Shown here in pieces: positions 17,815 through 32,000 of a stretch of 32,000 bases of DNA; within the stretch, counting starts at the first letter, position 1; every line of letters begins with the position of its first letter. The DNA is taken from positions 210,001 to 242,000 of the forward strand of contig PBAU01000003.1 in the NCBI GenBank assembly GCA_002716355.1. Direction: 5' to 3'. The notes beneath the pieces are model-generated. The model made no database searches. It had not been told where the DNA came from and saw only the letters and a list, made by a program, of their open reading frames with translations. This stretch comes from a bacterium. GTDB lineage: Bacteria > UBP7 > UBA6624. The position numbers and the translations under genes were made by a program.

Positions 17815-17815
17815 T

Positions 17816-18646
17816 TCATATTTCCTCAGCAAATCTAGATTCAGATTTCATAAAAACACAATAACCCCAAACCAACAAAACCAAGCCTAGACCAAAAGCC
17901 ATTGCAAGTGATCCAGGATTAGGGTTAGATAAATCCAAAAGAACGTCTCTATATCCTTTGATAACATGCGTCATTGGGTTAAGGTAATAAATTTGATGGA
18001 TGATTTCAGCGCTTCTTTCATTCAGAAAACCTAAACTCTGAAATTTCTCTAATGTGGGAGGAGCATAAAGAACTGGGGTTCCGAAAAAAAGAACAGTCAT
18101 GAATGTATTTGCAAGCTGCTCTGTATCTCTATAAAAAACATTCATTGTAGATAGCAACAAGCCAACACCAAGTGTTATCATGAGATGCAGTAAAAGTATA
18201 ACTGGCAAATAAAAAAGCGGCAAAAGCTCAAGACCGGAACCATGATCTGGCCACCATTTAAGCAAACATGCCAAAATCAAAATCGCCAACATCATCAAAA
18301 AATGAACAGCTTCAGCTAATACAGAAGCCAAAGGCAAAACAATCCTTGGGAAGGCAACCTGCTTCAACAATCCTCCTGCTTGAACTATTGAAGGTGTTGA
18401 TTTTGTAACACCTCCAGAAAAGAAATTGAAAGCAAATAAACCGATGATCAAAAGAAATGGATAAGTTGTTCCCCCCATTCCAAATTTGTCAGTAAGCAGA
18501 ACCCCAAAAACAGCATAATAAACAAAAAACATTGTCAAAGGCTGTACAAGAGACCATAAAAAACCCAAGCCAGTATTCCTATACCTTAAACGAAGGTCTC
18601 TAAGGGTTAAATTTTTCAAAAGCTCTGTATATTCAAAAATTTTCAT
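17816..18646 (-). CDS. wzm: ABC-2 type polysaccharide exporter permease
   Basis: 276 aa with about 6 hydrophobic helices. The N-terminal motif LLKNLTLRDLRLRYRNTGLGFLWSLVQP is characteristic of Wzm/TagG/KpsM ABC-2 permeases. It lies immediately upstream of wzt. Confidence 0.85.
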   Translation of the reverse strand: MKIFEYTELLKNLTLRDLRLRYRNTGLGFLWSLVQPLTMFFVYYAVFGVLLTDKFGMGGTTYPFLLIIGLFAFNFFSGGVTKSTPSIVQAGGLLKQVAFPRIVLPLASVLAEAVHFLMMLAILILACLLKWWPDHGSGLELLPLFYLPVILLLHLMITLGVGLLLSTMNVFYRDTEQLANTFMTVLFFGTPVLYAPPTLEKFQSLGFLNERSAEIIHQIYYLNPMTHVIKGYRDVLLDLSNPNPGSLAMAFGLGLVLLVWGYCVFMKSESRFAEEI

Positions 18647-18649
18647 AAA

Positions 18650-19489
18650 TTAAAAAACAACCCTCACACCGCCATCAGCCTTCCAGCTTAAATCACTAAA
18701 AACATAAATGTTTTTGGCATAACCAGAAAAATCATCTGATTTTATCAGCAGATCTCCCTCTATTGCAGAAATGTTAAAAAAATTTTCAAAAATCTTAACT
18801 GAAGCATTTTTAGAGGAAACCATCAGATCCTTAAAATACAAAGTGAACCCAGAGATTCTCAAAAATGAATTCTTATCATCTATATACATGAAAAAATCAT
18901 CACCTTGAATGTCAAGAACATCATCCTTGAAAACATACTGAAAATACTCTAAATCAGATGAAGAAACAATGTCATTCGATTCATAATTCCAATAATAAAG
19001 AGGGGCTTTTGATTGAAAGGAAAAAAAATCACCTTTCAAGCTTGGTGAACCATACAAAAAAACATTTGAATCTTCAATGATAATTTTTTCTGCATTTAAT
19101 GCATGATCCAAATAACTTGCTTGTTCAAAAGGGCCTTCTAATGTAATTTTTCCTGACTTGTCAAAAACCGCCTTGCCATATGAGTGAAAATTAAAAAAAG
19201 AAGCATTGACATCAACACCCTTTTCCATTACCATTCTTGACTTCAAAAAACTTCCTTCCGGGGCTGAAAAAAAATATTCATCTTTATAAGTGCCATTTAA
19301 GCCTTCAGAAAAAGCAAAAAAACCTTTTCCGTCTGATGAAACATAACAAGACTGTGCTTCAAAATCATTTCTGATTATTTGAATCTGGCTATTGTTTTCA
19401 CATGATGCAATAAATGATCCATCGGCAGCCATAGAAACATTGCCATAACCTTTAATCAAGGTGTCCAAAAACAAAAAAAAATAAATCAA
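18650..19489 (-). CDS. hypothetical exported beta-rich protein (279 aa) ending in a C-terminal Phe
   Basis: Long ORF with a TTG start forming a TTGA overlap with the coaD stop. It is rich in F/Y/S/D/K with alternating patterns and ends ...WKADGGVRVVF. I recognise no catalytic motif. Confidence 0.55.
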   Translation of the reverse strand: MIYFFLFLDTLIKGYGNVSMAADGSFIASCENNSQIQIIRNDFEAQSCYVSSDGKGFFAFSEGLNGTYKDEYFFSAPEGSFLKSRMVMEKGVDVNASFFNFHSYGKAVFDKSGKITLEGPFEQASYLDHALNAEKIIIEDSNVFLYGSPSLKGDFFSFQSKAPLYYWNYESNDIVSSSDLEYFQYVFKDDVLDIQGDDFFMYIDDKNSFLRISGFTLYFKDLMVSSKNASVKIFENFFNISAIEGDLLIKSDDFSGYAKNIYVFSDLSWKADGGVRVVF

Positions 19490-20801: not shown

Positions 20802-22331
20802 ATGGGCAAAAAATTCAAACATATTGAAAAGAAAATTACCCTGGTGGGAACAATAAGAAAGTACTCAAGACCTTTCTTTATAACAACAGGTTTAATTTTT
20901 ATAGTTTCTATTTTTTGGAATTACGGTACAACATTTACAAAATCAACAAAAATCAGTGACGAGGCACTTCAGCAACAATTAGAAATTGCTCCATCGGTGG
21001 TTGACGGAGAGGCTGTTGATGAAAATTCAGTAAGCCGTCTTGTTGGTGCAAAAGTTCAACAATGGAGAATGCAAAATCCGTCTTCTGCTCCTGGCATCAT
21101 GGATATGATTCAATTTAGGGTAGAAAGCATTGATGAGATAATCGAAAGAAAAGTTCTTTTGAATGAGGCAAAAATCCAAAAAATAAAAATTAAAGATAGC
21201 TCTATCTCCGAAAGGAAAGAGAGAGACCTAGAAAGTTTTTTCATAGAGAAAGATCAAGAAGGTAATTTTTTCGAAAAATTCAAAAATAGAAAAGAGGCAA
21301 AAAAAGCATTTTTCAACAGAATTTCATCATTAGGGATGTCTGAAACCGATTACTTAAACTTAATCAAAGAAGATTTAATGATTGAAGAGATTGAAGTTTC
21401 AATATCTATGACAGCACAATCTGAATCAGAAACATACAAAAAAGATGCTGAAAGCATGATTCAAAACATGCTAGATGAAGGAAAAGATCTTACTGAAATA
21501 TCTCTTGAGCTAAACGGAAGGCTAGGAATAAGGACAATAGCAAGCAGATGGCTAACAAGATCTGAAGCAGATTCCTTAATGATTCCTTTTGAGGAATTGA
21601 ACCAAGAAAAAATAGCAAAATATCAATCAGGCAATGAAACAATTTTCTCCAAAGGCCTTGAATACAGGGAAGCTTCTGGTAAAGACTATGAAGATTTTGT
21701 TAAATCAAAAAAAGATCAAAAAAATAAAGAAGTCAACCTTGAGCAAATTGCCGTGGAAGCAGATTACTCAAAAGATTATGAAGCAGTTCGTATCCAAAGC
21801 ATACAAGTTTCAGCACCACTAAATGAATTTTACAGCGATATAAAAAACAAAATAACCTTGTCTCATGACATCATCATCAATGACAAAATTTATTCAATCT
21901 ACAAAGACCTTTTGCTTGGTGATTATGACTCATCTGGAGCCAAAAGCTTAGAAAGCTCAAAAGAAGAAAATGCTAGGAATGAGTATCTTGCATTATGCGC
22001 ATGGAGCTTTTTGCTAAAAAGCAAAATGTCAGAAACAGAAACAGATCAAGCTTCTTTGACTCAATCCCAATTATGCTCAACAAATCTTTTAGAGCTAGCC
22101 CCTTTTGACCCATACAACATCTTACTAGCAGCAAGAATAGAGCTCGAAGTCGGAAATCAAGAAAAAGCAATTAGCCTAATTGCAGAAGCTAAAGACTTTC
22201 GTGGGCAAAATTTAAACATATCCTTCCAGATATCCTCACTCTTTAGGGAGGCTGGAAATGAGGAAATGGCTCTTGCAGAAGATGAAGAAAGAAATAAAAT
22301 AATAGGAAACCTAAACAATAAATTATTTTGA
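20802..22331 (+). CDS. hypothetical membrane-anchored protein (509 aa): N-terminal TM helix, a charged helical body and a TPR-like tail. It is possibly a PpiD/SurA-N-like chaperone without a PPIase domain.
   Basis: Single TM helix (FFITTGLIFIVSIFWNY). A long Glu/Lys-rich region follows. The segment after the TM (APSVVDGEAVDENSVSRLV) loosely resembles SurA_N/PpiD. I see no PPIase motif. Confidence 0.5.
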   Translation: MGKKFKHIEKKITLVGTIRKYSRPFFITTGLIFIVSIFWNYGTTFTKSTKISDEALQQQLEIAPSVVDGEAVDENSVSRLVGAKVQQWRMQNPSSAPGIMDMIQFRVESIDEIIERKVLLNEAKIQKIKIKDSSISERKERDLESFFIEKDQEGNFFEKFKNRKEAKKAFFNRISSLGMSETDYLNLIKEDLMIEEIEVSISMTAQSESETYKKDAESMIQNMLDEGKDLTEISLELNGRLGIRTIASRWLTRSEADSLMIPFEELNQEKIAKYQSGNETIFSKGLEYREASGKDYEDFVKSKKDQKNKEVNLEQIAVEADYSKDYEAVRIQSIQVSAPLNEFYSDIKNKITLSHDIIINDKIYSIYKDLLLGDYDSSGAKSLESSKEENARNEYLALCAWSFLLKSKMSETETDQASLTQSQLCSTNLLELAPFDPYNILLAARIELEVGNQEKAISLIAEAKDFRGQNLNISFQISSLFREAGNEEMALAEDEERNKIIGNLNNKLF

Positions 22332-23611
22332 ATAAAAAATATCACATACGAACTTTTGGATGCCAGATGAATACAGCCGATTCAGATTCAATTGCAGGAA
22401 TGCTTGATGATTTTGGATTTGAAAAATCAACAGAAGAAAAAGCAGATATAGTTCTTTATAACACCTGTGCTGTCAGAGAGAAAGCTGAACAAAGAATGAG
22501 GTCTGAACTTGGTAGCGTAAGGATACGAAAAGAAAGCAATCCTGAAGTAAAAATAGGAATACTTGGCTGCGCTGCGGAAAGCTTAAAAGAAAAATTAGAA
22601 AAAGAAGAATGGATTGACATTGTGCAAGATGGGAAAAATCTTGAGAAAATGAAAGAAGCAGTAATGAAAATTCTTCCAGACGAATACGAAACCACTCAGG
22701 ATTCTTTTGGCTTACATAGAAGTGGTGAGAATTCAGGAATGATACCTGTAATCAGAGGATGCTCTTATATGTGCTCCTACTGTATTGTTCCAAGAACAAG
22801 AGGCCTGCAAAGATCAATACCTTTAAAAGAAATACTAAAAGATGTCGAGCTATCTATTGAAAAAGGTTCAAAAGAAATATACCTACTAGGTCAAAATTTT
22901 CTTTCCTATGGCAGAGACCTTTCAAAAAAAACATCTCCAGAAGAAATGATATCTACCGTGCATGATTCATTTCCTGAGCTTAAAAGAATAAGGTTCCTAA
23001 CAAGCCATCCTCACGACTTAACAAAAAACTTTCTGCAAACAATGAATTCCCTTCCGCGTGTTGCAAGATATCTCCATTTGCCATTTCAATCTGGAAGCGA
23101 TACTGTTCTAAAGGCAATGAGGAGAATAACCACAAGGCAAACTGTTATTGAAAAATCACAATGGGTAAGAGAGATCTGGAAAGATGCGACTCTTTCCACT
23201 GATATCATTGTTGGCTTTCCGACCGAAACAGAAAAAAACCACAAAGAAACAATTTCCCTGCTTGAAGAGGTTCAGTATGATTTTGCATACTCTTTCCTAT
23301 ATTCACCGAGACCTCAAACTAAAGCATTCCCTCTAGGGGATCCAATACCTCATAAAGAAAAAGTTAAAAGGCTTTCCGAGGTAACAAAAGTTTTAAATTC
23401 AATCTGGTTTGAAAAAAATAAAAAATACCTAGGAAAAACAGTTGAAGTTTTAGTGGAAAACAAAGAAGGCAAAAGCGAAAATAGATGGACAGGCAGATCG
23501 GAAGGCTTCCATCTTGTTCATTTTGATTCAAACACAAATCCAATAGGCAAATATGTTAAAGTAAAAATCACAAAAACAGGATCAACGTTCCTTGGAGGAG
23601 AGCTTGTTTAA
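22328..23611 (+). CDS. miaB: tRNA-2-methylthio-N6-dimethylallyladenosine synthase (radical SAM methylthiotransferase MiaB)
   Basis: N-terminal UPF0004 cluster motif TFGCQMNTADSD. Radical SAM motif GCSYMCSYCIVP. C-terminal TRAM domain (GKTVEVLVEN...VKVKITKTGSTFLGGELV). The TTG start forms a TTGA overlap with the upstream stop. Confidence 0.85.
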   Translation: MNKKYHIRTFGCQMNTADSDSIAGMLDDFGFEKSTEEKADIVLYNTCAVREKAEQRMRSELGSVRIRKESNPEVKIGILGCAAESLKEKLEKEEWIDIVQDGKNLEKMKEAVMKILPDEYETTQDSFGLHRSGENSGMIPVIRGCSYMCSYCIVPRTRGLQRSIPLKEILKDVELSIEKGSKEIYLLGQNFLSYGRDLSKKTSPEEMISTVHDSFPELKRIRFLTSHPHDLTKNFLQTMNSLPRVARYLHLPFQSGSDTVLKAMRRITTRQTVIEKSQWVREIWKDATLSTDIIVGFPTETEKNHKETISLLEEVQYDFAYSFLYSPRPQTKAFPLGDPIPHKEKVKRLSEVTKVLNSIWFEKNKKYLGKTVEVLVENKEGKSENRWTGRSEGFHLVHFDSNTNPIGKYVKVKITKTGSTFLGGELV

Positions 23612-24938
23612 ATTTTTTATTCTTTTGTTGCTGCCAATGCAGTTACAAGAGGCTCTTCAGTTACACCCTTCCGTTATCACTGCAAAAAAAAATGTTGAAT
23701 TATCAGAATTGAATTTTGCACAATCTGAATATCAAACATTTTCACCTCTTTTATCAACAAGTGGGTCTCACAGCAACAATGAAAGCAGTGTAAATTTTGA
23801 TACAAGTGAATCAAGCAGCCTTAATGCTTCAATTTCATGGCTCACAAGAAGAGGTTATTCGCTCAGTTTTTCATTGCGCAATAATGAATCTGTCTATGAT
23901 AGTTCAATAGGTGGAATAACTGACAACTATTCACTTTCTTCAGGTTTCTCGCTTAGCTATCCTCTTTTTTCTGAAAAAAGAAAATTAAGATTAAGCAATA
24001 CAGACATATCAGCATTCAACACTCTGAAAACTCATATAGACTACCAAGCGACCCTAAACCAATCAGCATATGATGTAATTTCAAGATTTTGGGATTGCTT
24101 GATTCTTGAAGAAAACTTAGCTCTGACAAGGCTTTCATTAAAAGAAAGCCAGCAACAACAATCTCAAATAGAAGCAAGAATAAACACTGGCACACTTGCT
24201 GAAAGTGAAATCTACAGTTACATAAACAGAACACTCCAGCAAGAAGCTTCAGTAATTGATGCAGAAATAAGATTACAAGAATGCAATGAACAAGCAAACC
24301 TTCTTTTTGGGAGGGAGGTTCCTAAAGAATGGTTTGAACTAGTGAAATCAATTGATTTTCAAGAAGACATTTCATATCCTGAAAAGGCATACAAAACAAC
24401 GGATGTTGAGAAAAGTGAAATCGATCTGAAAGTTGGAAAAATCAATCTAGAAAATTCATATTCTCAGGATATGGCTGATTTTGATCTCTCGTTAAGTTAT
24501 GGCTTGAATGCTAATTCAACAACCCAAACAAGCTTTAGCGATCTGGAGAACCCAAACTGGAATATTGGATTGACATGGTCAAAAAGATTAGGGAACAAAA
24601 ACTACAACCAAAAAGAATCAGAGATAAATTTCGAGAACCTCAATCTCTTTCTGGAGAGAACAATGGACAATGCACTTCTTACAGAAAGAAGCCTAGTTAA
24701 CCAAATCATCTCTATAGAAAAACTTGTTACAGCTTCTGAATCAGGAGTAAAAGCTGCAGAAAAAGCTTACGAAGGAACTAAAGCAAGATGGGAAGTTGGA
24801 CTAACAACAAACCTTGAACTTTTCACTTTAGAAAATTCATTAATGTCTGCAAGGATGTCCTTGCTTACAACAAAAAAGAATCTCTTATTAGCAAAAGCAA
24901 ATCTTGCAAGATTTAGAGGAAATATTGTTTCAAAATGA
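23592..24938 (+). CDS. TolC-family outer membrane efflux protein
   Basis: 448 aa with a two-fold repeat of helical and beta segments. The N-terminal part LQEALQLHPSVITAKKNVELSELNFAQSE and the C-terminal part AYEGTKARWEVGLTTNLELFTLENSLMSARMSLL are typical OEP/TolC repeats. The start is uncertain: TTG 23592, TTG 23604 or ATG 23637. Confidence 0.75.
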   Translation: MEESLFKFFILLLLPMQLQEALQLHPSVITAKKNVELSELNFAQSEYQTFSPLLSTSGSHSNNESSVNFDTSESSSLNASISWLTRRGYSLSFSLRNNESVYDSSIGGITDNYSLSSGFSLSYPLFSEKRKLRLSNTDISAFNTLKTHIDYQATLNQSAYDVISRFWDCLILEENLALTRLSLKESQQQQSQIEARINTGTLAESEIYSYINRTLQQEASVIDAEIRLQECNEQANLLFGREVPKEWFELVKSIDFQEDISYPEKAYKTTDVEKSEIDLKVGKINLENSYSQDMADFDLSLSYGLNANSTTQTSFSDLENPNWNIGLTWSKRLGNKNYNQKESEINFENLNLFLERTMDNALLTERSLVNQIISIEKLVTASESGVKAAEKAYEGTKARWEVGLTTNLELFTLENSLMSARMSLLTTKKNLLLAKANLARFRGNIVSK

Positions 24939-24977
24939 AGGAAGGAGAAGAAGGGTAGAAATAAATCGTCAAACTTG

Positions 24978-25262
24978 TCACCAAGTGCTGGCTGGCAAAT
25001 TTTTCTCGCCATAAATCCATCTCCCTCTCACAAGAATTTCAGAGATATAAGAATTAGAAACCCTGGTTGCGTCAATCAAAAAAACATGCCTGTTTCCAGA
25101 AACATCTTTTTCAAAACGTTTTGTGAAATTGTTTAAATCCTTGAGTTCAATCCATTGATCTGAAAAAAGGATTACAGACAAGAGCGAATCATTTTCCTCC
25201 AAAAGATAAGCTGCTTCAACACAAGACCCATCAAGGATTTCTTTCGCAATTTTTTCAATCAT
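24978..25262 (-). CDS. small protein (94 aa) with a degenerate minimal nucleotidyltransferase (MNT/Pol-beta-like) pattern
   Basis: The ATG forms an ATGA overlap with the mgtE stop. The layout parallels MNT proteins: helix, then VEAAYLL where xxFGS is expected, then DSLLSVILF where DxDxxV is expected, then VFLID...ISEILVRGRWIY where VDLV...ILKEAxxxY is expected. The catalytic GS and DxD residues are absent. Confidence 0.5.
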   Translation of the reverse strand: MIEKIAKEILDGSCVEAAYLLEENDSLLSVILFSDQWIELKDLNNFTKRFEKDVSGNRHVFLIDATRVSNSYISEILVRGRWIYGEKNLPASTW

Positions 25263-26611
25263 AACAATCCAATAATCAACGATGTATAAATGGTTACTCC
25301 GGTTATATCACAAATAGTTGAAATTAATGGTGCGCTCGCAATAGCAGGGTCAATTCTCCTCAAAGACATCAATAATGGTGTCCCTGTCCCAACTATACTG
25401 CCAGTCATTATTGCAGCTACAAGGCTTAAGCCGACCACCTTAAGCTGATTGAGCTCAAGAGACTGATTTGAAAAAAAATAAGAGATAGTGAAGACAAAGA
25501 AAGCACAGCACAAAGCCATAGCAAAGCCAACTTTTAACTGCTTTAAAACAAACCTCCATGGCTTTTCGGCTGAAAGCCTATTTGTGGCAAGAGCTCGAAC
25601 AACTATTACCGAAGACTGATTTCCAATTGCACCTCCCAAAGCCATTATCAATGGCAAAAACGCAATAAGCAAAACAAAATTCTCAATCGAATGACCTTTC
25701 GTCTCTAAAATTCTTCCTGTTAAGAAACTTCCGACCAGAGTCAAAAAAAGCCATGACATCCTTCTTAAAGCAATCCTCCAAGTTGTTTGGTTCACAGTCA
25801 GCTCCTCCTCGGAGAGACCAGCTAGCAAAAACACATCTTCAGTTGCTTCCTCTTGAACCATGTCAACAATATCATCTGGACTCAAAGCACCACAAAGTGT
25901 CCCTTCTTCATCGGTTACAGGAACCATCAAAAGACCATACTGTTCAAATACCTTAATCGCCTCTTCTTTATCTGAAGAAATTGAAACTGAAACAATTTCG
26001 TCTATAAAAACATCAGAAATAGGAAGACTTTCATCTGAATCACTAAGTTTTTTGAGGGTTGCGAAGCCTAAAAGCTTCCTATCGTCATCTACAACATAAA
26101 CAATATTTGAAAAATCATCATCAAAGCCAACAAGCTTTTCCAATGCATCTTTCACATTATCTTTTATATTTACAAACGCTGGCAAAACATCCATCCTTCC
26201 AGCTGCAGTATCTTCATCAAAATTCAAAAGATCACTTATTAAATGATTCTGCTTTTTAAGTTTTGAGGTTATCTCTTCCTTTGTAACATCCGGAAGAAAT
26301 CGGATAACAGCAGTTGCTATATCAGCTGGTAATTTGCGTAAAATTTTCATAGAATGATCTGTTTTCAATCTTGAAATCTGCTGTGCCAAAACATCCTCAT
26401 CCACTTTTTCAAGTATCAACTGCGGTCTAGGAGTTTTTAAAATTAAATCAAATAGCTTCTGCCTATTTTCTTTTTCCAATAGCGGAAAAACACTAGCAAT
26501 TTCACCAGGATGATATTTGAGTATAAATCTTCTTTTTCTTTGAATGCTCTTGTAACCTAATATCTTTTCCAAAGCTGCTAAAAGAATTGAATTACGCAAT
26601 TTGCCAGACAT
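25259..26611 (-). CDS. mgtE: magnesium transporter MgtE
   Basis: 450 aa. It has an N-terminal MgtE_N helical domain, tandem CBS region (VDDDRKLLGFATLKKL, VTDEEGTLCGALSPDDIV) and 5 C-terminal TM helices, with the conserved ICDITGVTIYTSL near the end. GGAG lies 8 nt upstream of the ATG. Confidence 0.85.
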   Translation of the reverse strand: MSGKLRNSILLAALEKILGYKSIQRKRRFILKYHPGEIASVFPLLEKENRQKLFDLILKTPRPQLILEKVDEDVLAQQISRLKTDHSMKILRKLPADIATAVIRFLPDVTKEEITSKLKKQNHLISDLLNFDEDTAAGRMDVLPAFVNIKDNVKDALEKLVGFDDDFSNIVYVVDDDRKLLGFATLKKLSDSDESLPISDVFIDEIVSVSISSDKEEAIKVFEQYGLLMVPVTDEEGTLCGALSPDDIVDMVQEEATEDVFLLAGLSEEELTVNQTTWRIALRRMSWLFLTLVGSFLTGRILETKGHSIENFVLLIAFLPLIMALGGAIGNQSSVIVVRALATNRLSAEKPWRFVLKQLKVGFAMALCCAFFVFTISYFFSNQSLELNQLKVVGLSLVAAIMTGSIVGTGTPLLMSLRRIDPAIASAPLISTICDITGVTIYTSLIIGLL

Positions 26612-26734
26612 GAATCAAGCTCCATTCAAATTGGCAAAAAAATAAAATTTTCCAGAAAACAATTTAATTTTGTACATTTTTATATGATTTTAGTTTTAAA
26701 AAAATACATTTACCCATTTTTAATACATAAAATG

Positions 26735-26749
26735 TAATCATTATGATTA
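26735..26749. promoter_or_regulatory. 15-bp perfect palindrome TAATCAT-T-ATGATTA overlapping the exbB-like start codon. Candidate repressor (Fur-box-like) site.
   Basis: Read directly. The right arm contains the ATG at 26743. The stretch TAATCATTAT is identical to positions 9-18 of the classical 19-bp Fur-box consensus GATAATGATAATCATTATC, but the overall match is only about 12 of 19. Confidence 0.3.
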
Positions 26750-27423
26750 ATCCAATTTCTTTATTTTTAAATAATTTCTTAACATCAGGAGGTCTAGGTG
26801 GATCAATCATCCTTCTAGTAATAATCCTTCTTTCAGTCTACGGCCTTGCAATAGTTTTCGAAAGAAGAAAAACATTTGCAAAAATACCCAAAGGTGGCGG
26901 CAAAGATGTCGTAAGGCGAATAATTAGCGCTTTGGAGATAAATGATATAGCTGAAGCAAAGGTGCAAACATCCTCAAGAAAAGATGTTTATTCTAGAATG
27001 CTAAAAACTGTTCTTGAATCAAGGGAATGCAGCAAGGCCATATTTGAGGAAAACATTTCAAAAACATTTCTCAAAATTTCATCTGATCTTGAAAGAAACC
27101 TGGCAAGCCTTGCAACAATTGTTGAATTTTCACCACTTATAGGTCTGCTTGGAACAATTGTAGGTTTAATGAAGATTTTTGGGAGCATCTCTGAAGGTGG
27201 GTTAGGACACCATGAAGAACTTGCAGGAGGTATATCGACCGCCCTTATAACAACAGCCGCAGGTCTTATAGTTGCAATATTCTTTGGAATAATACTCAGA
27301 TCTTACAAATCAAAAATCGAAGACATTTCAATGAATATTGAAAATTGTGTTTCAGATGTGGTTTCACATCCGTCATTTTTTCAAAAAAAAACAAATGACG
27401 GAATGGAGAATTCAAATAATTGA
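26743..27423 (+). CDS. MotA/TolQ/ExbB family proton-channel protein
   Basis: 226 aa with 3 TM helices. Family signature LATIVEFSPLIGLLGTIVGLMKIFGSI...GGISTALITTAAGLIVAI. Confidence 0.85.
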   Translation: MINPISLFLNNFLTSGGLGGSIILLVIILLSVYGLAIVFERRKTFAKIPKGGGKDVVRRIISALEINDIAEAKVQTSSRKDVYSRMLKTVLESRECSKAIFEENISKTFLKISSDLERNLASLATIVEFSPLIGLLGTIVGLMKIFGSISEGGLGHHEELAGGISTALITTAAGLIVAIFFGIILRSYKSKIEDISMNIENCVSDVVSHPSFFQKKTNDGMENSNN

Positions 27424-27830
27424 AAACTAGATTCAAAAACAAATCTGAAAATACAGAGCTAAAAATAGCCTGGACCCCTTTGATTGATATGGTTTTTATA
27501 CTACTTCTTTTTTTCGCCGTCACAACAACATGGGCCTCAAAAGAAGCTGGAATGAATATGGAATTACCAAACGCTGGCTCAGGAACACAGCAAAACAATA
27601 GCCAGATAATCTATGTGGATGAATTAGGAAGAATATACATAAACAATCAAGATACACCCCTTTCAATTTCTGATTTTCTAAATGAGCTAAATCGTTTTGA
27701 GAAAGATCAACCATGGGAAATAAGAGCTAACAAAAATGTCCCTTATGAAAAAGTTATCATTGTGCTTGACAATTTAAGAAAAGAAAAATATATGAATGTA
27801 ATACTCGCAGTTGAACCTAACAGAAATTGA
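27420..27830 (+). CDS. ExbD/TolR family biopolymer transport protein
   Basis: 136 aa. LKIAWTPLIDMVFILLLFF contains the conserved Asp in the single TM helix, followed by a periplasmic domain. The TTG start forms a TTGA overlap with the upstream stop. Confidence 0.85.
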   Translation: MKTRFKNKSENTELKIAWTPLIDMVFILLLFFAVTTTWASKEAGMNMELPNAGSGTQQNNSQIIYVDELGRIYINNQDTPLSISDFLNELNRFEKDQPWEIRANKNVPYEKVIIVLDNLRKEKYMNVILAVEPNRN

Positions 27831-28867
27831 AAAAACTAACTGAAATAGAAAAAAATATAATTCCAAAATCATTAAGGACACCTCTTAGGATTTCTATTTT
27901 CCTTCATGTTATATTGATTTCTTTTCTAGCTTTTATAAAATTTCCATTGCCTGAACCCCCTCCATTAATTTTGAAAATATCAGAAGAGCAAACAACAGAA
28001 AACGAAAAAGAAAAAGAAAATAACGAACCTGAGAAAGAACAAGAGGATTCACAAGGCCATGGTTCGAAAGAATTAAACACAGAAAGCAAAAAAGCAACAA
28101 ACAAAAAACCAACACAAGGCCAAATATACATAGTGAAATCTGGTGACAGTGTTGGAAAGATTGCTTCAGAGGCTGGAGTCAGCATTCAAGATATGAAAAA
28201 ATTCAACCCATGCGATCTTGGTAACAATCCATCACTGATAATTAAACCGGGAGATAGATTGATGATACCAGGAGCAGGAAGAAAAGAACCTGGGCCATGC
28301 AAAACAAAACAAGAAGAAAAAAACTCAAAAGAAATAACTGAAGAGGATCTTATAGAAACAATTTTAAAAACAACAGAAAACGCAGTTGAGGAGACAGTTG
28401 AGGAGACAGTTGAGGAGACAGTTGAGATAGACCCTTGCGCTGCTGATCAACCTTATGATGAAAGCTGCTGGCCATTAGACAAAGAAAGGCCAAAACCTCT
28501 TGTTACAAAATTAGCTGGATATGAGAATGTTGGCGGTTGGTTCAAGCAGCCAATAAAAGACAACAACGGTAAATTAATGGGGAGAGCTGAATTTGGAACC
28601 TCTTCATCACCATTAAATATTCCAAAAAATCTTACTGATGGTGATGGGCTTGCTAAAGGCACATCTGTAGTAATTGAAATGGAATTTTCAGAAAACGGAG
28701 AAGCCCAATCAGAACCAAAGATAATTTTGACAAGCGGATATGAATCACTCGACAAAAGAGCAATAGCCTGGATGAAGAAAACAACATTTAAAGACAGCTT
28801 CAATCGGCACCAAATGGAAAACGGTGGCATCCTGAGAATTCAATTCTATTTTCCAGGTGCCTCATGA
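27827..28867 (+). CDS. TonB/TolA-like energy-transducer protein with an embedded LysM peptidoglycan-binding domain
   Basis: 346 aa with an N-terminal TM helix (ISIFLHVILISFLAFI). A PEPPP plus Glu/Lys-rich linker follows. LysM spans aa 99-148 (YIVKSGDSVGKIASEAGVSIQDMKKFNP...IKPGDRLMIP). There is a VEET x3 repeat. The C-terminal domain is TonB_C-like (GTSVVIEMEFSENGEAQSEPKIILTSGYESLDKRAIAWMKKTTFK...GGILRIQFYF). The TTG start forms a TTGA overlap. Confidence 0.7.
   Translation: MKKLTEIEKNIIPKSLRTPLRISIFLHVILISFLAFIKFPLPEPPPLILKISEEQTTENEKEKENNEPEKEQEDSQGHGSKELNTESKKATNKKPTQGQIYIVKSGDSVGKIASEAGVSIQDMKKFNPCDLGNNPSLIIKPGDRLMIPGAGRKEPGPCKTKQEEKNSKEITEEDLIETILKTTENAVEETVEETVEETVEIDPCAADQPYDESCWPLDKERPKPLVTKLAGYENVGGWFKQPIKDNNGKLMGRAEFGTSSSPLNIPKNLTDGDGLAKGTSVVIEMEFSENGEAQSEPKIILTSGYESLDKRAIAWMKKTTFKDSFNRHQMENGGILRIQFYFPGAS
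28385..28426 (+). repeat. perfect in-frame 12-nt tandem repeat (GTTGAGGAGACA) x3 plus a GTTGAG partial copy, encoding VEET-VEET-VEET-VE in the TonB/TolA-like linker
   Basis: Read directly: gttgaggagaca at 28385-28396, 28397-28408 and 28409-28420, then gttgag at 28421-28426. Confidence 0.95.
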
Positions 28868-30747
28868 TTTTATCTCTTTTCTTAAGCCTGATCCTTAATC
28901 CGATCTCTATTGAAAATCAATTTATACAAATAAGAGTAAACCCGGGCCCATACGAGGAAGCCAGGTTTGGACTTGACACCACGCAAGGAAACCCAGAAGA
29001 ACCTAATGATGATGGAAAGAAATTAATATACGGAGCAAAAATGCCATGGTCTAGCTTTGCGATAATAAAAATAGATGAAAAAACATTCATTTTTGGTGGG
29101 CCTTCAAGAAGTGATAGAAAAAATTCTTTTGCGAACCTGCCAACCGGCAAAAAAATATCCGAACCCTATATTGAAGATGAAAAAATAATTTCAATTTGGG
29201 AATTTTCTGGAGTTGAGATTAGTCAAATTCTATCTTTTGAAAAAGGCTACTCCACAAACCTTAAAGATGCAATGGGTATTAGCTATATTGCAAAATCAAC
29301 TGACGAAAAAGAACATAGTGTTGGAATTACATTAATCCTTGACACTATGCTTGGAGAAAATGACGGAGCGCCACTAAGGGCAGAAGGAGCACAGGGGCTC
29401 ATTGAGTCAGAAATATGTTTTGAAAAGTCCGAATTACCAGAATTTTGGCAAGCTTGGGACACTGAAGATCAAGCAACAATCAAAGCTGAAGGCAGGCTAA
29501 AGATCAAAAATAAAGAAAACCCAAGAAAGCTAGTGTTAGCAAATTGGGGCAAGCTTGCAAAAACAAATTGGGATATAGAGTGTCAGCCAGGGGCAAGTTT
29601 TGTAAGAGATGGAGAATTTGAAGATGAAAAAGACACTGCTGTTGCTATAATTTGGGACTCAATCATCGTTAACAACAAAACGCAAGAATTTCATACTACA
29701 TATGGAATAGCAGATGCCCCAGCTCCTCCAGAATGCAAACCTCTATCTGCATACATAAGCGGCAAACCTTTTGAGATAGGAAGCAATGAAGAAAAATCTT
29801 TTTTTGGAAACTGGACAACTGATAAAGATTATCCTGTACAACCAAAAGAAGCAACTCTAAAAGTTTACTCTGATGATGGCTTAAAGGTGATAAATCCAGA
29901 AAAAGCAATAAATCTTCAAGAATACCCAAACGGATACCATTCATTCAAAATTTTCAACCCTGGAATAAATAAAAACAATGCTACCTATACTTTAAAAATA
30001 GAGTCGCCTGAAGGTTTTGAATGCACAACAACAAACAAAGTGAAAATATCAAAGCCTGCCAATTTAGAAATGAAGCTTATGCAAAAACCAACAATATCAT
30101 CAATTTCCGGCATACGACATGACCCTACAAAATTTTATGCAAGCTTAACTATTGAAAATTCTGGAGAAAGCAACTCTGAAAAAGGAAGTATAGAAATCCA
30201 AACAAGTCAAAAATTATCAATTTCATCAGATTTAAAAATTGATTTCGATAGCATTCCCCCAAAAGGGAAAAAAACTTTTTCATGGCTTGTCTCAATTGCT
30301 CCTGAGTCATCAGGATCAGCTTCATTAAATTGGATTTTGAACCATAAGAATGAAGAAAGAACATCTAAAAAAATTGAATTTGATATACCTTCTCTCAACC
30401 AACATATGAGAATAAAGTCAATACAAAGAAATTTTTCCAACTCTCTCGTAACGGCAGTGAAAATGAAGCCATTTTCAACTTTTTGGGGCCAATGGGAGCT
30501 TCCCGGAAAATGCTTATTTGCTGGAAATGGAGGTATAGAAAAACATGGATATACCGTTGAAACAAAATGCCATGAAAATATAGTTGAAGTTTTAATTTCA
30601 GGCAATGGAGATGAATTACCGCCTTTAGTTGGTCTTTTTAGAGTATTTCATTCTGGAAATCATGAAAAAAACTGGAATCGAATAAAAAATTGTATTAACA
30701 TTAATAAGACAAGTGAATGTCAAACATTAGAGGAGATATGGGAATGA
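28864..30747 (+). CDS. hypothetical secreted protein (627 aa): unknown N-terminal domain plus Ig/CARDB-like beta-sandwich region(s)
   Basis: Long ORF with an ATGA overlap to the upstream gene and a hydrophobic N-terminus (MILSLFLSLILNP). The first 290 aa or so (RFGLDTTQGNPEEPNDDGKKLIYG...) match nothing I can name. Residues around 400-500 (FYASLTIENSGESNSEKGSIEIQTSQ...KGKKTFSWLVSIAP) look like a CARDB-type sandwich. Confidence 0.6.
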   Translation: MILSLFLSLILNPISIENQFIQIRVNPGPYEEARFGLDTTQGNPEEPNDDGKKLIYGAKMPWSSFAIIKIDEKTFIFGGPSRSDRKNSFANLPTGKKISEPYIEDEKIISIWEFSGVEISQILSFEKGYSTNLKDAMGISYIAKSTDEKEHSVGITLILDTMLGENDGAPLRAEGAQGLIESEICFEKSELPEFWQAWDTEDQATIKAEGRLKIKNKENPRKLVLANWGKLAKTNWDIECQPGASFVRDGEFEDEKDTAVAIIWDSIIVNNKTQEFHTTYGIADAPAPPECKPLSAYISGKPFEIGSNEEKSFFGNWTTDKDYPVQPKEATLKVYSDDGLKVINPEKAINLQEYPNGYHSFKIFNPGINKNNATYTLKIESPEGFECTTTNKVKISKPANLEMKLMQKPTISSISGIRHDPTKFYASLTIENSGESNSEKGSIEIQTSQKLSISSDLKIDFDSIPPKGKKTFSWLVSIAPESSGSASLNWILNHKNEERTSKKIEFDIPSLNQHMRIKSIQRNFSNSLVTAVKMKPFSTFWGQWELPGKCLFAGNGGIEKHGYTVETKCHENIVEVLISGNGDELPPLVGLFRVFHSGNHEKNWNRIKNCININKTSECQTLEEIWE

Positions 30748-31382
30748 AAAAAATAACCTTGCTATTGATATTATCAATAATGAACATTGCAAACCTAAAA
30801 GGACTAGATGTAAGAGATCTATCTGAAGATCACCCTGCATACAACACCGTAATATACCTTATCGAAGAAGGTTTTTTAAGCACTTTTGACGGTGATGAAT
30901 TCAGAGGTGAGGAGTCTATAACTAGACTTGAGGTAGCAATGTTAGTTGACAAAATACTCAAACATGTTTCTTCCGGTGAGAAAAATCCAACAGCCCAAGA
31001 AGCTGATGCTATACGTTTATTGGCAGAAGAATTCAAAACAAACATCATAAGAATTGATGACAAGCTTTACGCTTTTGAGCAAAGAATCAAACTTCTGGAA
31101 AACGAGCAGTCTAAAGTTGTTGATGATTTTCTAGCAATCAAAATTGAAGTTGATGAAAAGCTAGCTAAATTCGAAAGTGACTTGGAATCATTACGACAAG
31201 GGTTAGAGAATCGATCCATACAGGAAGAAACAAAATTAATGCTTGATGAAATGAGCCTTAGATTAGCTGACCTTGAAACAAGAATGTCAGATTACGATAA
31301 AAAAAATGCAGATGGGTCAACAGCGCTTGAATCAAAATATGTATTTTGGCTTTTTGGACTGCTTGCTTTGGCATCCAGCTAA
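30744..31382 (+). CDS. SLH-domain / coiled-coil / C-terminal-anchor protein (Omp-alpha-like envelope tether, 212 aa)
   Basis: AGGAG at 30731-30735 lies 8 nt before the ATG at 30744, which forms an ATGA overlap with the upstream stop. Signal peptide MKKITLLLILSIMNIANL. One SLH motif is present (DHPAYNTVIYLIEEGFLSTFDGDEFRGEESITRLEVAMLVDKIL). A heptad-rich stretch of about 100 aa follows (LYAFEQRIKLLENEQSKV...LESLRQGLEN...LADLETRMSDY). The C-terminal hydrophobic helix is YVFWLFGLLALASS. Confidence 0.7.
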   Translation: MKKITLLLILSIMNIANLKGLDVRDLSEDHPAYNTVIYLIEEGFLSTFDGDEFRGEESITRLEVAMLVDKILKHVSSGEKNPTAQEADAIRLLAEEFKTNIIRIDDKLYAFEQRIKLLENEQSKVVDDFLAIKIEVDEKLAKFESDLESLRQGLENRSIQEETKLMLDEMSLRLADLETRMSDYDKKNADGSTALESKYVFWLFGLLALASS

Positions 31383-31388: not shown

Positions 31389-32000
31389 TTGAAAGTCCTG
31401 GTTACTGGTGGTGCTGGATTCATTGGGCACACAATATCTAAAAAATATATTGAAAAAGGTTACGACGTAACAATACTAGACAATCTTTCAACAGGGAAAA
31501 AAGAAAATATACCAGATGGTGCTAATTTTATATTTGGTGATATATGTGATTCAGAAATTATAAAAAAATTAGGATCATTTGACCTTTTAAGCCATCATGC
31601 AGCTCAAACAAGTGTAACTTTCTCTGTTAAAAATCCTTTAATTGATGCAAGGAACAATGTGTTTGGAACAATATCTTTACTTGAAAGCATGAAAGGGAAA
31701 GTGAATCAAATCATATTTGCAAGCACAGGTGGAGCGATATACGGCAATATAAAAAAAATAGCAACAGAAAAACATGCAAAAAATCCAAAATCACCATATG
31801 CGTTAAACAAAATGACTGGAGAAAAAATAGTTACCATGTGGGCCAAGCAAAACAAAACAAAAGCAACAATACTTAGATATTCAAATGTTTATGGTCCAGG
31901 TCAAGACCCTCATGGTGAATCTGGAGTTATAGCAATATGGATGAAAAACATACTTGAAAAAAAACCATGCATCATATATGGAGATGGCAACTCAGTAAGA
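31389..32000 (+). CDS. NAD-dependent epimerase/dehydratase (UDP-glucose 4-epimerase-like), 5' part. It continues beyond the window end.
   Basis: Not in the ORF track because there is no stop inside the window. TTG AAA GTC CTG GTT ACT GGT GGT GCT GGA TTC ATT GGG gives LKVLVTGGAGFIGH. Downstream are STGGAIYG and the catalytic SPYALNK (YxxxK). The reading frame stays open to position 32000. Confidence 0.75.
   Translation, partial: MKVLVTGGAGFIGHTISKKYIEKGYDVTILDNLSTGKKENIPDGANFIFGDICDSEIIKKLGSFDLLSHHAAQTSVTFSVKNPLIDARNNVFGTISLLESMKGKVNQIIFASTGGAIYGNIKKIATEKHAKNPKSPYALNKMTGEKIVTMWAKQNKTKATILRYSNVYGPGQDPHGESGVIAIWMKNILEKKPCIIYGDGNSVR

What the first reader, a model, noticed from the sequence alone, without database searches (positions are those of the whole stretch)
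26735..31382. Five-gene, translationally coupled ExbB/ExbD/TonB-LysM/orphan/SLH module: a possible non-canonical Tol-Pal-like envelope system
Genes 26743-31382 are co-directional and joined by 4-nt stop/start overlaps (TTGA, TTGA, ATGA, ATGA), so they are almost certainly one unit. In order they are:
1. a TolQ/ExbB-type channel (226 aa);
2. a TolR/ExbD protein (136 aa);
3. a protein with a TM helix, a charged linker, a LysM domain and a TonB/TolA-type C-terminal domain (346 aa);
4. a 627-aa secreted orphan;
5. a 212-aa SLH, coiled-coil and C-terminal-anchor protein.

Order and sizes of the first three parallel tolQ-tolR-tolA. Slots 4 and 5, which are tolB and pal/cpoB in the canonical operon, are filled by unrelated folds. 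One of these binds the cell wall through SLH instead of an OmpA-like domain. No TonB-dependent receptor is present in the window.

Hypothesis: this is a PMF-driven outer-membrane tethering or constriction machine for a diderm that uses SLH-type anchoring.
Basis: partly seen in the sequence, partly recalled or inferred. Interest (0 to 1): 0.8.

Follow-up and report, generated by a model that had tools for sequence, protein, structure and literature searches.

The report
ExbBD–TonB operon with SLH tether
A proton-driven membrane motor, its force-transmitting arm, a secreted sugar-binding-type protein and a cell-wall-anchored coiled-coil protein form one operon that is conserved across many double-membraned bacteria lacking Tol-Pal, so it is a candidate, so far undescribed, envelope-maintenance machine.

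Summary
Five co-directional genes at 26743-31382 are joined by TTGA/TTGA/ATGA/ATGA overlaps. They encode:
- an ExbB/TolQ channel;
- an ExbD/TolR protein;
- a TonB-family transducer with an inserted LysM domain;
- a 627-aa exported all-beta protein;
- a 212-aa protein with signal peptide, SLH domain, coiled coil and C-terminal hydrophobic helix.

Protein 4 is not an orphan. Its N-terminal domain family has at least 848 cluster representatives and relatives in 447 species genomes. The five-gene order recurs in Halanaerobiales, Limnochordia, Armatimonadota, Marinamargulisbacteria and Hebobacteria. Of 61 testable loci, 58 have the motor and TonB genes upstream; of 67, 61 have the coiled-coil anchor downstream.

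Protein 4 models as a galactose-mutarotase-like beta-supersandwich, two Ig-like domains and a cohesin-like domain. It is not a TolB propeller. Protein 5 is a homologue of the OmpM/SlpA periplasmic stalk, with a helix in place of the barrel, as in Thermotoga Omp-alpha.

The most likely function is proton-motive-force-driven action on a peptidoglycan-bound tether, analogous to Tol-Pal. That is inferred from synteny and homology, not shown. I found no paper describing the module. It is a new variant of a known kind of system.

The parts
26612..26742 (+). AT-rich intergenic region between divergent mgtE and g1; presumed promoter region of the operon
   Evidence: sequence. A weak sigma-70-like match lies at 26720-26747, but the number of such matches is not above the shuffled expectation. 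Inferred, not shown.
26743..27423 (+). g1: ExbB/TolQ-type proton channel subunit (226 aa)
   Evidence: Pfam MotA_ExbB, 95.1 bits, E 3.5e-27. Best PDB match is TolQ over the full length, E 1.1e-8. NCBIfam tolQ and exbB equivalogs are far below their cut-offs.
27420..27830 (+). g2: ExbD/TolR-type subunit (136 aa) with transmembrane Asp (PLIDMV)
   Evidence: Pfam ExbD, 90.1 bits. PDB ExbD, E 3.1e-8. Asp motif present in 71 of 73 orthologues.
27827..28867 (+). g3: TonB-family transducer (346 aa): transmembrane helix with S23-x3-H27, charged linker, LysM, divergent TonB_C domain
   Evidence: In the orthologous slot, TonB_C is found in 68 of 69 proteins, the profile hits TonB C-terminal domains at 1e-13, and its N-terminal part hits TolA at 5e-7.
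27884..27937 (+). g3 transmembrane helix (aa 20-37) carrying the SxxxH motor-docking motif
   Evidence: Sequence. H27 is invariant and S23 is at least 90% conserved in alignment A2.
28127..28270 (+). g3 LysM domain (aa 101-148), specific to this lineage
   Evidence: Pfam LysM, E 6.6e-8. Found in only 7 of 69 slot-3 orthologues.
28598..28864 (+). g3 C-terminal TonB_C-like domain (about aa 258-346)
   Evidence: Pfam TonB_C, 15.8 bits, below the cut-off. Aligns to the YPK...SSG...LD...W.F.P consensus of the orthologues, with P266 and K267 invariant.
28864..30747 (+). g4: exported four-domain all-beta protein (627 aa)
   Evidence: AlphaFold2 model, pLDDT 82. Homologues carry Sec signal peptides. 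72 homologues were found in the first search, and 447 species genomes encode a relative.
28897..29727 (+). g4 N-terminal signature domain (aa 12-288): galactose-mutarotase-like beta-supersandwich, not covered by any Pfam or NCBIfam model
   Evidence: Model pLDDT 90, pTM 0.91. Foldseek matches the N-terminal domains of GH94 phosphorylases and cyclic glucan synthase (TM 0.62), GH116, aldose-1-epimerase-like proteins and YidC P1. There are 33 invariant columns, including DT.LG.NDG.P. Family size is 848 representatives at E<=1e-10.
29743..30387 (+). g4 two Ig-like beta-sandwich domains (about aa 294-508)
   Evidence: Secondary structure of the model. Weak CARDB hit. CARDB and NPCBM_assoc domains in homologues.
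30415..30744 (+). g4 C-terminal cohesin-like domain (about aa 518-627)
   Evidence: Family profile A1 against PDB: type-II cohesins such as ScaB 3l8q, E 6.7e-13. Pfam Cohesin in the Halanaerobacter orthologue.
30744..31382 (+). g5: OmpM/SlpA-stalk-like protein (212 aa): signal peptide, one SLH, coiled coil, C-terminal hydrophobic helix
   Evidence: Pfam SLH, 26 bits. Best PDB hit is the V. parvula OmpM1 stalk 8bz2, E 1e-4. The slot-5 profile hits SlpA at 1.8e-21 and OmpM1 at 2.9e-21.
30816..30938 (+). g5 SLH domain (aa 25-65) with the ITRLE motif
   Evidence: alignment to the OmpM1 ITRYE motif.
30942..31334 (+). g5 coiled-coil segment (about aa 67-197)
   Evidence: Coiled-coil family matches over aa 67-197. 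Length varies from about 140 to 795 aa among orthologues.
31338..31379 (+). g5 C-terminal hydrophobic anchor (YVFWLFGLLALASS)
   Evidence: Sequence. Conserved feature of slot 5, with a median of 2 K/R before the hydrophobic run and 1 residue after it.

Best explanation
The five genes form one operon for an envelope-spanning machine.

How it most likely works:
- ExbB (g1) and ExbD (g2) form a proton-driven motor in the inner membrane.
- A dedicated TonB-family protein (g3) docks to the motor through its SxxxH helix and reaches across the periplasm. In this lineage it also grips peptidoglycan through a LysM domain.
- Its TonB-type C-terminal domain acts on the two exported partners, not on an import receptor.
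- g4 is a soluble periplasmic protein with a glycan-binding-type supersandwich head, two Ig-like spacers and a cohesin-like protein-binding tail.
- g5 probably trimerises like the OmpM stalk. It binds peptidoglycan or its secondary polymer through its SLH domain. It is held in a membrane by its C-terminal helix, probably the outer membrane by analogy with Thermotoga Omp-alpha.
- Motor force would engage, release or reposition this tether, for instance during growth and division. This would be the job Tol-Pal does in Gracilicutes.

Shown: gene content, coupling, homologies, folds and conservation of the gene order.

Inferred: the physical contacts among g3, g4 and g5, the membrane in which g5 sits, and the tethering or constriction function.
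For: Operon and parts:
- Gene structure and 4-nt overlaps.
- Motor homology with the catalytic Asp.
- TonB family assignment of slot 3.

Conservation of the five-gene order:
- Found in Halanaerobacter, in a lineage with only 33% g4 identity, and across 80 genome loci from several phyla.
- 58 of 61 testable loci have the upstream genes; 61 of 67 have the downstream gene.
- Only these five genes recur across the loci.

Partner proteins:
- g5 and its orthologues are homologous to the OmpM/SlpA tether stalk.
- g5 shares the Omp-alpha architecture. Omp-alpha homologues have an SLH motif, more than 75% helix and hydrophobic C-termini (PMC3387000). They are among the most abundant proteins of the toga fraction (PMC10160955).
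- g4 is exported and has a glycan-binding-type fold plus a cohesin-like domain.

Context:
- No TonB-dependent receptor is in the window or among the recurrent neighbours.
- Curated Tol-Pal systems are reported only in Gracilicutes. Among Firmicutes, Ton systems were reported only in Negativicutes (PMC12204202).
Against: - There is no experimental or structural evidence for any contact among g3, g4 and g5.
- g4 has no TolB-like propeller, and its fold also fits an enzyme or adhesin.
- The SLH domain is absent from slot 5 in Armatimonadota and Hebobacteria.
- The g4-g5 pair occurs without an adjacent motor in L038 and L056.
- With a Sec signal peptide, a C-terminal helix would by default stay in the inner membrane.
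- Only 447 of 185,579 species matched, and no Negativicutes, Cyanobacteria or Deinococcota were among the 80 best loci. The system is therefore not universal in diderm Terrabacteria.
- I could not check the source genome for tolB, pal or TonB-dependent receptors.
Confidence: 0.45

Rival explanations
1. This is an ordinary Ton uptake system. ExbB-ExbD-TonB energises TonB-dependent receptors encoded elsewhere. g4 and g5 are envelope proteins that merely share the operon, for example a periplasmic glycan-binding protein that hands a substrate on.
For: The slot-3 proteins are bona fide TonB_C proteins. tonB and TBDT genes are often unlinked (PMC12204202). The g4 head has a carbohydrate-binding-type fold.
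Against: The g4 and g5 genes follow the motor in nearly every locus across phyla, often with overlapping or tightly spaced genes. No receptor gene recurs nearby. Ton systems were not detected in the non-Negativicute diderm Firmicutes, yet Halanaerobiales carry this module.
Confidence: 0.2
2. This is a PMF-assisted cell-wall glycan processing or export system. The g4 supersandwich domain would be catalytic or bind secondary cell-wall polymer or peptidoglycan. The motor would drive its movement along or through the wall, and g5 would serve as a scaffold or ruler.
For: The N-terminal domain has 33 invariant columns rich in Asp, Arg and Trp (DT.LG.NDG.P.R, W, D), suggesting a defined pocket. The fold is shared with aldose epimerases and with domains of glycoside phosphorylases and lyases. 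g3 carries LysM in this lineage. A cell-wall hydrolase (Hydrolase_2) lies directly downstream in Halanaerobacter.
Against: In most structural matches the supersandwich is a non-catalytic accessory domain. No hit to any enzyme family was found by sequence. No glycan-synthesis genes recur next to the module.
Confidence: 0.15
3. This is a surface-layer or sheath anchoring device. g4, with its cohesin-like and Ig-like domains, would be displayed on the cell surface and docked by g5 in the way cellulosome-anchoring scaffoldins are. The motor would be only loosely related.
For: Sources annotate homologues as 'cellulosome anchor protein' or 'cohesin domain-containing'. The C-terminal domain matches type-II cohesins. 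SLH domains are classic S-layer anchors (Sap hits).
Against: No dockerin was detected in g3 or g5. The slot-5 profile matches the OmpM/SlpA stalks far better than the Sap S-layer protein: 1e-21 against 1e-8. In the window protein itself the gap is much smaller, 1e-4 against 7e-4. The module occurs in marine and groundwater lineages with no cellulosome, and it is tightly coupled to a periplasmic TonB.
Confidence: 0.08
4. This is a sporulation-linked envelope remodelling module, active when inner-membrane-derived spore membranes become an outer membrane.
For: In about 20 Bacillota loci the module lies between dacF-spoIIAA-spoIIAB-sigF and spoVA genes. An alpha-helical anchor could be inserted while the future outer membrane is still an inner membrane.
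Against: The module is present in non-sporulating phyla (Armatimonadota, Marinamargulisbacteria, Hebobacteria, the window lineage) and in different contexts there. The placement may simply be inherited synteny within one clade.
Confidence: 0.05

Closest known systems
Tol-Pal system (tolQ-tolR-tolA-tolB-pal, E. coli and other Gracilicutes)
   Same: - Same five-gene logic and order: ExbB/TolQ-type channel, ExbD/TolR, an SxxxH-helix transducer of the TonB/TolA family, an exported beta-rich periplasmic protein, and a peptidoglycan-binding membrane-anchored protein.
- g1 aligns to TolQ over its full length.
- The N-terminal part of the slot-3 profile matches TolA.
   Different: - g4 is a supersandwich/Ig/cohesin-like protein, not a TolB beta-propeller.
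- g5 has an SLH domain, a coiled coil and a C-terminal helix, not a lipoprotein with an OmpA-like domain.
- The g3 C-terminal domain is TonB_C-type.
- The NCBIfam TolQ, TolR and TolA equivalogs are all far below their cut-offs.
Ton system (ExbB-ExbD-TonB with TonB-dependent transporters)
   Same: Motor and transducer families. The TonB_C domain has the YP...SSG...W.F.P signature.
   Different: No TonB-dependent receptor is linked. Two dedicated non-receptor partners are conserved instead. The LysM insertion in g3 is found only in the window lineage and one other.
OmpM / SlpA outer-membrane tethers of diderm Terrabacteria (V. parvula OmpM1, D. radiodurans SlpA)
   Same: g5 has a single N-terminal SLH followed by a coiled coil. 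It is homologous to the OmpM1 stalk (8bz2, 8bys) and the SlpA N-terminus. The TRxE-type motif is kept (ITRLE).
   Different: No beta-barrel: the protein ends in a 14-residue hydrophobic helix. It is encoded in a motor operon. The conserved Trp of DHWAY is Pro in the window protein.
Thermotoga Omp-alpha (OmpA1/OmpA2)
   Same: Same architecture: SLH, long coiled coil, hydrophobic C-terminus. Proposed to link the outer sheath to peptidoglycan (PMC3387000; PMC10160955).
   Different: Omp-alpha is paired with a beta-barrel gene (ompB), not with exbBD-tonB. Its coiled coil is 316 aa, against about 130 aa here. Direct sequence homology to Omp-alpha was not tested.
Non-transport TonB/TolA-like force transducers (vWA-type transducers next to tolQR-like motors)
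   Same: Concept of a 5:2 motor with an SxxxH-helix transducer serving a non-import function (PMC12204202).
   Different: Those proteins carry a vWA C-terminal domain and occur in Proteobacteria, the PVC group and Bacteroidetes. Here the C-terminal domain is TonB_C, and the partners are g4 and g5 in Terrabacteria.

Membership tests
MotA/TolQ/ExbB proton channel (PF01618) | Score above the Pfam gathering cut-off | tested here: met
   g1 scores 95.1 bits against a 22.9 cut-off.
TolQ (TIGR02796) / ExbB (TIGR02797) equivalogs | Score above the NCBIfam equivalog cut-off | tested here: not met
   TolQ 81.4 against 221; ExbB 52.5 against 206.
ExbD/TolR (PF02472) | Pfam cut-off and a conserved transmembrane Asp | tested here: met
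   g2 scores 90.1 bits against 25.4. The PLIDMV Asp is present; the motif occurs in 71 of 73 orthologues. The TolR and ExbD equivalogs are below their cut-offs.
TonB family | N-terminal transmembrane helix with the S-x3-H motif that docks to ExbB | tested here: met
   S23 and H27 in g3. H is invariant and S is at least 90% conserved in A2. Motif present in 71 of 72 orthologues.
TonB family | C-terminal TonB_C domain (PF03544) | tested here: inconclusive
   The window protein scores 15.8 bits, below the 24.6 cut-off. The orthologous slot has TonB_C in 68 of 69 proteins at E<=0.01. The slot profile hits TonB C-terminal domains in PDB at 1e-13. g3 keeps the invariant P266-K267 of the YPK motif.
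TonB family | Functional partner with a TonB box (TonB-dependent transporter) | not testable with these tools
   None in the window.
TolA | TolA equivalog (TIGR02794) with a TolA-type domain III | tested here: not met
   17.2 bits against a 59.45 cut-off, covering the N-terminal region only. The C-terminal domain is TonB-type.
TolB | N-terminal alpha/beta domain plus a six-bladed beta-propeller | tested here: not met
   The g4 model is a supersandwich followed by three beta-sandwich domains. None of the 50 best fold matches listed for either model is a TolB or a beta-propeller protein.
Pal | Lipoprotein signal (lipobox Cys) and an OmpA-like peptidoglycan-binding domain | tested here: not met
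   g5 has no Cys in its signal peptide and no OmpA domain. It has an SLH domain instead.
OmpM/SlpA superfamily | N-terminal SLH domain followed by a coiled-coil stalk | tested here: met
   SLH scores 26 bits against 20.8. Hits to the OmpM1 stalk at 1e-4. Family profile hits at 1e-21.
OmpM/SlpA superfamily | C-terminal outer-membrane beta-barrel | tested here: not met
   g5 is 212 aa and ends in a single hydrophobic helix. The same holds in the orthologues.
Omp-alpha-type tethers (Thermotogae) | SLH, predominantly helical coiled coil and a hydrophobic C-terminus | tested here: met
   The architecture is met, and the definition comes from PMC3387000. Sequence homology to Thermotoga Omp-alpha and outer-membrane localisation were not tested.
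Cohesin (PF00963) | Cohesin-type beta-sandwich that binds a dockerin | tested here: inconclusive
   The family profile hits type-II cohesins at 6.7e-13, and the Pfam Cohesin domain is in orthologues. The window protein has no Pfam hit. No dockerin partner was found.
Zorya and other anti-phage defence systems | ZorA/ZorB plus effector proteins | tested here: not met
   Only weak superfamily-level ZorA hits for g1. Nothing for g2-g4, and only one weak LmuB match (E 0.003) for g5.

The most novel reading that the evidence does not exclude
This operon is the functional counterpart of Tol-Pal in diderm Terrabacteria. A proton-driven TonB-family motor would actively control an OmpM-stalk-type peptidoglycan tether (g5) through a periplasmic adaptor (g4). 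This would coordinate outer-membrane attachment or constriction with wall growth. It may reflect an ancient, pre-Tol-Pal way of energising the outer membrane.
Probability: 0.3. Interest if true: 0.9.

Novelty: new variant of a known kind. Interest (0 to 1): 0.75.

Why it matters
Tol-Pal is reported only in Gracilicutes. Diderm Terrabacteria tether their outer membrane with SLH-based OmpM/SlpA proteins. How they energise tethering, outer-membrane constriction or tether turnover is an open question (PMC12204202; Witwinowski et al. preprint 10.1101/2021.05.31.446380).

This module physically links, in one conserved operon, an ExbBD-TonB motor with an OmpM-stalk homologue. That gives a concrete, testable candidate. 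It also defines a large uncharacterised protein family, the g4 N-terminal domain, which no Pfam or NCBIfam model covers.

Cultured carriers exist for experiments: Halanaerobacter jeridensis DSM 23230 and Orenia metallireducens, with g4 homologues also in Halanaerocella petrolearia and Natronospora cellulosivora.

The module also shows a TonB paralogue with dedicated partners that are not receptors. This matters for how 'Ton systems' are scored in comparative genomics.

Tried and rejected
- Whole-chain Foldseek of g4 gave only generic multi-Ig matches (integrin legs, alpha-2-macroglobulin; TM below 0.25). It was uninformative, so I modelled the N-terminal domain alone.
- The word-indexed homologue search with g3 found only close relatives. 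The slot-3 family had to be assembled from the fetched loci.
- The profile search with the N-terminal domain (A5) returned mostly partial proteins. It did not widen the taxonomic picture.
- I looked for natural fusions of g4 with TonB, ExbB/D or the slot-5 protein among long homologues and found none. The 965-aa 'fusion' ORF in L011 is an ORF-calling artefact in high-GC DNA.
- The g3 length against g5 length correlation is weak (rho 0.36, p 0.01) and not corrected for phylogeny, so it was not used as evidence.
- A defence-system reading (Zorya) was rejected.
- TolB and Pal membership was rejected.
- Seven literature searches and five targeted look-ups within individual papers found no description of the module. 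The supplement of PMC12204202 does not mention Halanaerobiales, Limnochordia, Fimbriimonas or Margulisbacteria.
- The source organism could not be named. The NCBI labels of the closest records are 'bacterium' or 'uncultured bacterium'.

Full report
**1. Observation**

The region 26743-31382 holds five co-directional ORFs:
- g1 26743-27423 (226 aa)
- g2 27420-27830 (136 aa)
- g3 27827-28867 (346 aa)
- g4 28864-30747 (627 aa)
- g5 30744-31382 (212 aa)

The four junctions are the 4-nt overlaps TTGA, TTGA, ATGA and ATGA. g5 has a GAGGAG Shine-Dalgarno sequence before the 30744 ATG. An upstream in-frame ATG at 30717 is less likely to be the start. No convincing terminator lies inside the unit.

Upstream is a 131-nt AT-rich spacer and a divergent mgtE gene. 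Downstream, 6 nt after g5, an NAD-dependent epimerase gene begins.

None of the window ORFs scanned against Pfam matched a TonB-dependent receptor domain.

**2. The parts**

*g1 and g2, the motor.*
- g1 is a MotA/TolQ/ExbB channel: 95 bits in Pfam. Its best solved relative is TolQ over the full length.
- g2 is an ExbD/TolR protein: 90 bits, with ExbD as its best solved relative. It carries the transmembrane Asp.
- Neither reaches any NCBIfam equivalog cut-off. They are neither canonical TolQR nor canonical ExbBD.

*g3, the transducer.*
- It has a transmembrane helix carrying S23-x3-H27, then a charged linker and a LysM domain (E 6.6e-8).
- Its C-terminal region scores only 15.8 bits on TonB_C, below the cut-off.
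- The proteins in the same slot in 68 other loci settle the matter. TonB_C is found in 68 of 69.
- Their consensus shows the classical P.YPK...G.EG.V.L...V...G...SSG...LD..A...W.F.P signature. H27, P266 and K267 of the window protein are invariant.
- The slot profile hits TonB C-terminal domains in PDB at 1e-13. Its N-terminal part hits TolA at 5e-7.
- LysM is lineage-specific, found in 7 of 69.

*g4, the exported beta protein.*
- It has no Pfam or NCBIfam family, but it is not an orphan. The first search gave 72 homologues of similar length, including proteins from cultured Halanaerobiales.
- A pattern scan of GTDB species genomes found relatives in 447 genomes.
- A full phmmer pass over 1.84 billion representatives found 1626 proteins at E<=1e-3 and 848 at E<=1e-10. 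The best 150 listed are mostly about 600-720 aa, with the domain near the N-terminus.
- Homologues carry clear Sec signal peptides.
- The AlphaFold2 model is all-beta, with pLDDT 82.
- The N-terminal domain (aa 12-288) modelled alone reaches pLDDT 90 and pTM 0.91.
- This domain is a galactose-mutarotase-like beta-supersandwich. Its matches are the N-terminal domains of cyclic glucan synthase (TM 0.62), GH94 phosphorylases and GH116, aldose-1-epimerase-like proteins, and the periplasmic P1 domain of YidC.
- It has 33 invariant columns, including DT.LG.NDG.P.R and several Trp and Asp residues.
- Two Ig-like domains follow. They are CARDB/NPCBM_assoc-like in homologues.
- The C-terminal domain matches type-II cohesins at profile level, E 6.7e-13.

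*g5, the anchored coiled coil.*
- It has a signal peptide, one SLH domain (26 bits against a 20.8 cut-off) and about 130 residues that match coiled-coil families.
- It ends in a hydrophobic 14-mer at the very C-terminus.
- Its best solved relatives are the Veillonella parvula OmpM1 stalk (8bz2 and 8bys, E 1e-4) and Deinococcus SlpA.
- The slot-5 family profile hits SlpA at 1.8e-21 and OmpM1 at 2.9e-21, but the S-layer protein Sap only at 1e-8.
- g5 is therefore an OmpM/SlpA-type stalk whose beta-barrel is replaced by a single helix.
- This is the architecture described for Thermotoga Omp-alpha: SLH, coiled coil, hydrophobic C-terminus (PMC3387000). Omp-alpha homologues are abundant in the toga fraction (PMC10160955).

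**3. Conservation**

The same order appears in several places: ExbB, ExbD, TonB-like, g4 family, then a protein with signal peptide, SLH, coiled coil and C-terminal helix.
- Halanaerobacter jeridensis.
- A lineage whose g4 is only 33% identical, which also has LysM-TonB.
- The 80 best genome loci.

The labels of these loci include:
- Limnochordia
- Halobacteroidaceae, Orenia and Halanaerobacter
- many Bacillota MAGs
- Armatimonadota
- Marinamargulisbacteria
- Hebobacteria
- UBP13

I called ORFs in these loci and built HMMs for each slot. The results:
- 58 of 61 loci with enough upstream DNA have ExbB, ExbD and a slot-3 gene.
- 61 of 67 loci with enough downstream DNA have a slot-5 protein with an N-terminal signal and a C-terminal hydrophobic run.
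- SLH is found in 56 of 63 slot-5 proteins.

Several apparent exceptions are artefacts, caused by high-GC ORF calling, contig ends or runs of N.

Real deviations:
- L038 and L056 have the g4-g5 pair without an adjacent motor.
- Armatimonadota and Hebobacteria have a slot-5 protein of about 140 aa that keeps the coiled coil and C-terminal helix but has no SLH.

Clustering all flanking ORFs shows that only the five genes recur across the loci. The linkage is strongly conserved.

**4. Mechanism**

*Shown:*
- a complete 5:2-type motor gene pair;
- a TonB-family transducer with the motor-docking motif;
- two exported partners that co-occur with them across phyla;
- one of these partners is homologous to the peptidoglycan-binding stalk of the Terrabacterial outer-membrane tether.

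*Inferred:*
- The TonB_C domain of g3 engages g4 and/or g5 instead of a receptor.
- g5 trimerises like OmpM. One SLH per chain would form the three-SLH module (PMC10628300).
- g5 links peptidoglycan to a membrane.
- PMF-derived force regulates that link, as TolA-TolB regulates Pal.

*Which membrane holds g5?*
- The slot-5 C-terminal helix has a median of 2 Lys/Arg just before it and a median of 1 residue after it.
- Positive residues on the periplasmic side are unusual for an N-out/C-in inner-membrane anchor.
- They fit insertion into the inner leaflet of the outer membrane, as proposed for Omp-alpha.
- This is an argument, not a result. An inner-membrane location would make g5 an inner-membrane-to-wall ruler.

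*Supporting context:*
- Among Firmicutes, Ton systems were detected only in Negativicutes (PMC12204202).
- Halanaerobiales and Limnochordia nevertheless carry this motor-TonB module.

I put 0.45 on the tether-control reading. I put much higher confidence, about 0.85, on the narrower claim that the five genes form one conserved functional unit.

**5. Rivals**

- A normal Ton uptake system with distant receptors: 0.2.
- A PMF-assisted wall-glycan processing system with g4 as enzyme or lectin: 0.15.
- A surface-layer or cohesin-type display device: 0.08.
- A sporulation-linked remodelling module: 0.05.

The last rival comes from an observation in about 20 Bacillota loci. There the module sits between dacF-spoIIAA-spoIIAB-sigF and spoVA. 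It also occurs in non-sporulating phyla, which argues against a sporulation-specific role.

A defence-system reading is excluded.

**6. Comparison with known systems and novelty**

- The module works like Tol-Pal in gene logic. It fails membership for TolA, TolB and Pal.
- Its motor and transducer belong to the ExbB, ExbD and TonB families.
- g5 belongs to the OmpM/SlpA stalk family but lacks the barrel.
- The g4 N-terminal domain is an uncharacterised family.
- The literature searches and targeted look-ups found no paper linking ExbBD-TonB with an SLH coiled-coil protein or describing this operon. The library is incomplete, so prior description cannot be excluded.
- I rate it a new variant of a known kind of system, namely TonB/TolA-type force transduction.

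**7. Limits**

- There was no whole-genome access, so tolB, pal, OmpM, csaB and receptor counts could not be checked.
- The taxonomic labels are those of the submitters. Two loci labelled Betaproteobacteria and Actinomycetota fall outside the other host groups and may be mislabelled bins; I did not test this.
Its closest records are marine MAGs labelled 'bacterium'. One of them carries lpxK near the module, consistent with a diderm that makes LPS.

Noticed in passing
window 8932-12577 (+): Three consecutive genes resemble a bacillithiol biosynthesis set: BshC-type Rossmann protein, PIG-L deacetylase (BshB-like) and GT4 glycosyltransferase (BshA-like). The listed BshC ORF overlaps the upstream pseudouridine synthase gene by about 250 nt, so its true start is probably later.
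   Followed up: no
window ~3001-9000: GC content is 43-47% against about 35% in the rest of the window. The block carries a 1097-aa CBM9/PA14/DUF7133 protein, a 3-keto-disaccharide hydrolase-GDSL fusion, an M60 enhancin-like peptidase and a PfkB kinase. It may be a horizontally acquired glycan-use island.
   Followed up: no
window 14814-19489 (-): Polysaccharide export and modification cluster: Wzm/Wzt ABC transporter with a Wzt C-terminal domain, plus an epimerase. Two ORFs here have no Pfam hit (14814-15683, 289 aa; 18650-19489, 279 aa).
   Followed up: no
window 20802-26611; L002 1980-7742; L004 1-5693: The upstream block is SurA-like, MiaB-like, TolC-like OEP, a 94-97-aa ORF with no Pfam hit (24978-25262, -) and MgtE (-). 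It is kept next to the module even in the lineage whose g4 is only 33% identical. The small ORF is conserved in position, and its function is unknown.
   Followed up: partly
L012 1-3669 and 9672-12773, and about 20 similar Bacillota loci: The five-gene module, preceded by PHP-domain and GNAT genes, is inserted between dacF-spoIIAA-spoIIAB-sigF and spoVAD/cheW/fliM genes. A PHP-domain gene also lies directly upstream of the module in Halanaerobacter (L001 4777-5607).
   Followed up: partly
L011, L022, L030, L033, L039 (Armatimonadota, Hebobacteria and unlabelled MAGs), slot 5: The slot-5 protein is only 136-168 aa. It has a signal peptide, an Ala/Pro-rich stretch, a coiled coil and an Arg-rich segment before the C-terminal helix. 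Four of the five did not match the slot-5 HMM, and an SLH-type DVPxDHWAY start is not visible in any of them.
   Followed up: partly
L038 5914-8384; L056 5941-8459: The g4-g5 pair occurs without adjacent exbB/exbD/tonB. Upstream are NmrA-like and solute-binding protein genes, and downstream is holB, as in Marinamargulisbacteria loci.
   Followed up: partly
P0128 (Caldicellulosiruptor obsidiansis, 291 aa): A stand-alone copy of the g4 N-terminal supersandwich domain occurs in Caldicellulosiruptor, which is, from general knowledge, a single-membraned Firmicute. It has no Pfam hit. This suggests the domain has a function independent of an outer membrane.
   Followed up: no
window 31389-32000 (+): An NAD-dependent epimerase/dehydratase gene starts 6 nt after g5 and is conserved there only in the window's own lineage (L002, L003). 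There it is followed by a gene with lactate/malate dehydrogenase domains (Ldh_1_N, Ldh_1_C).
   Followed up: no
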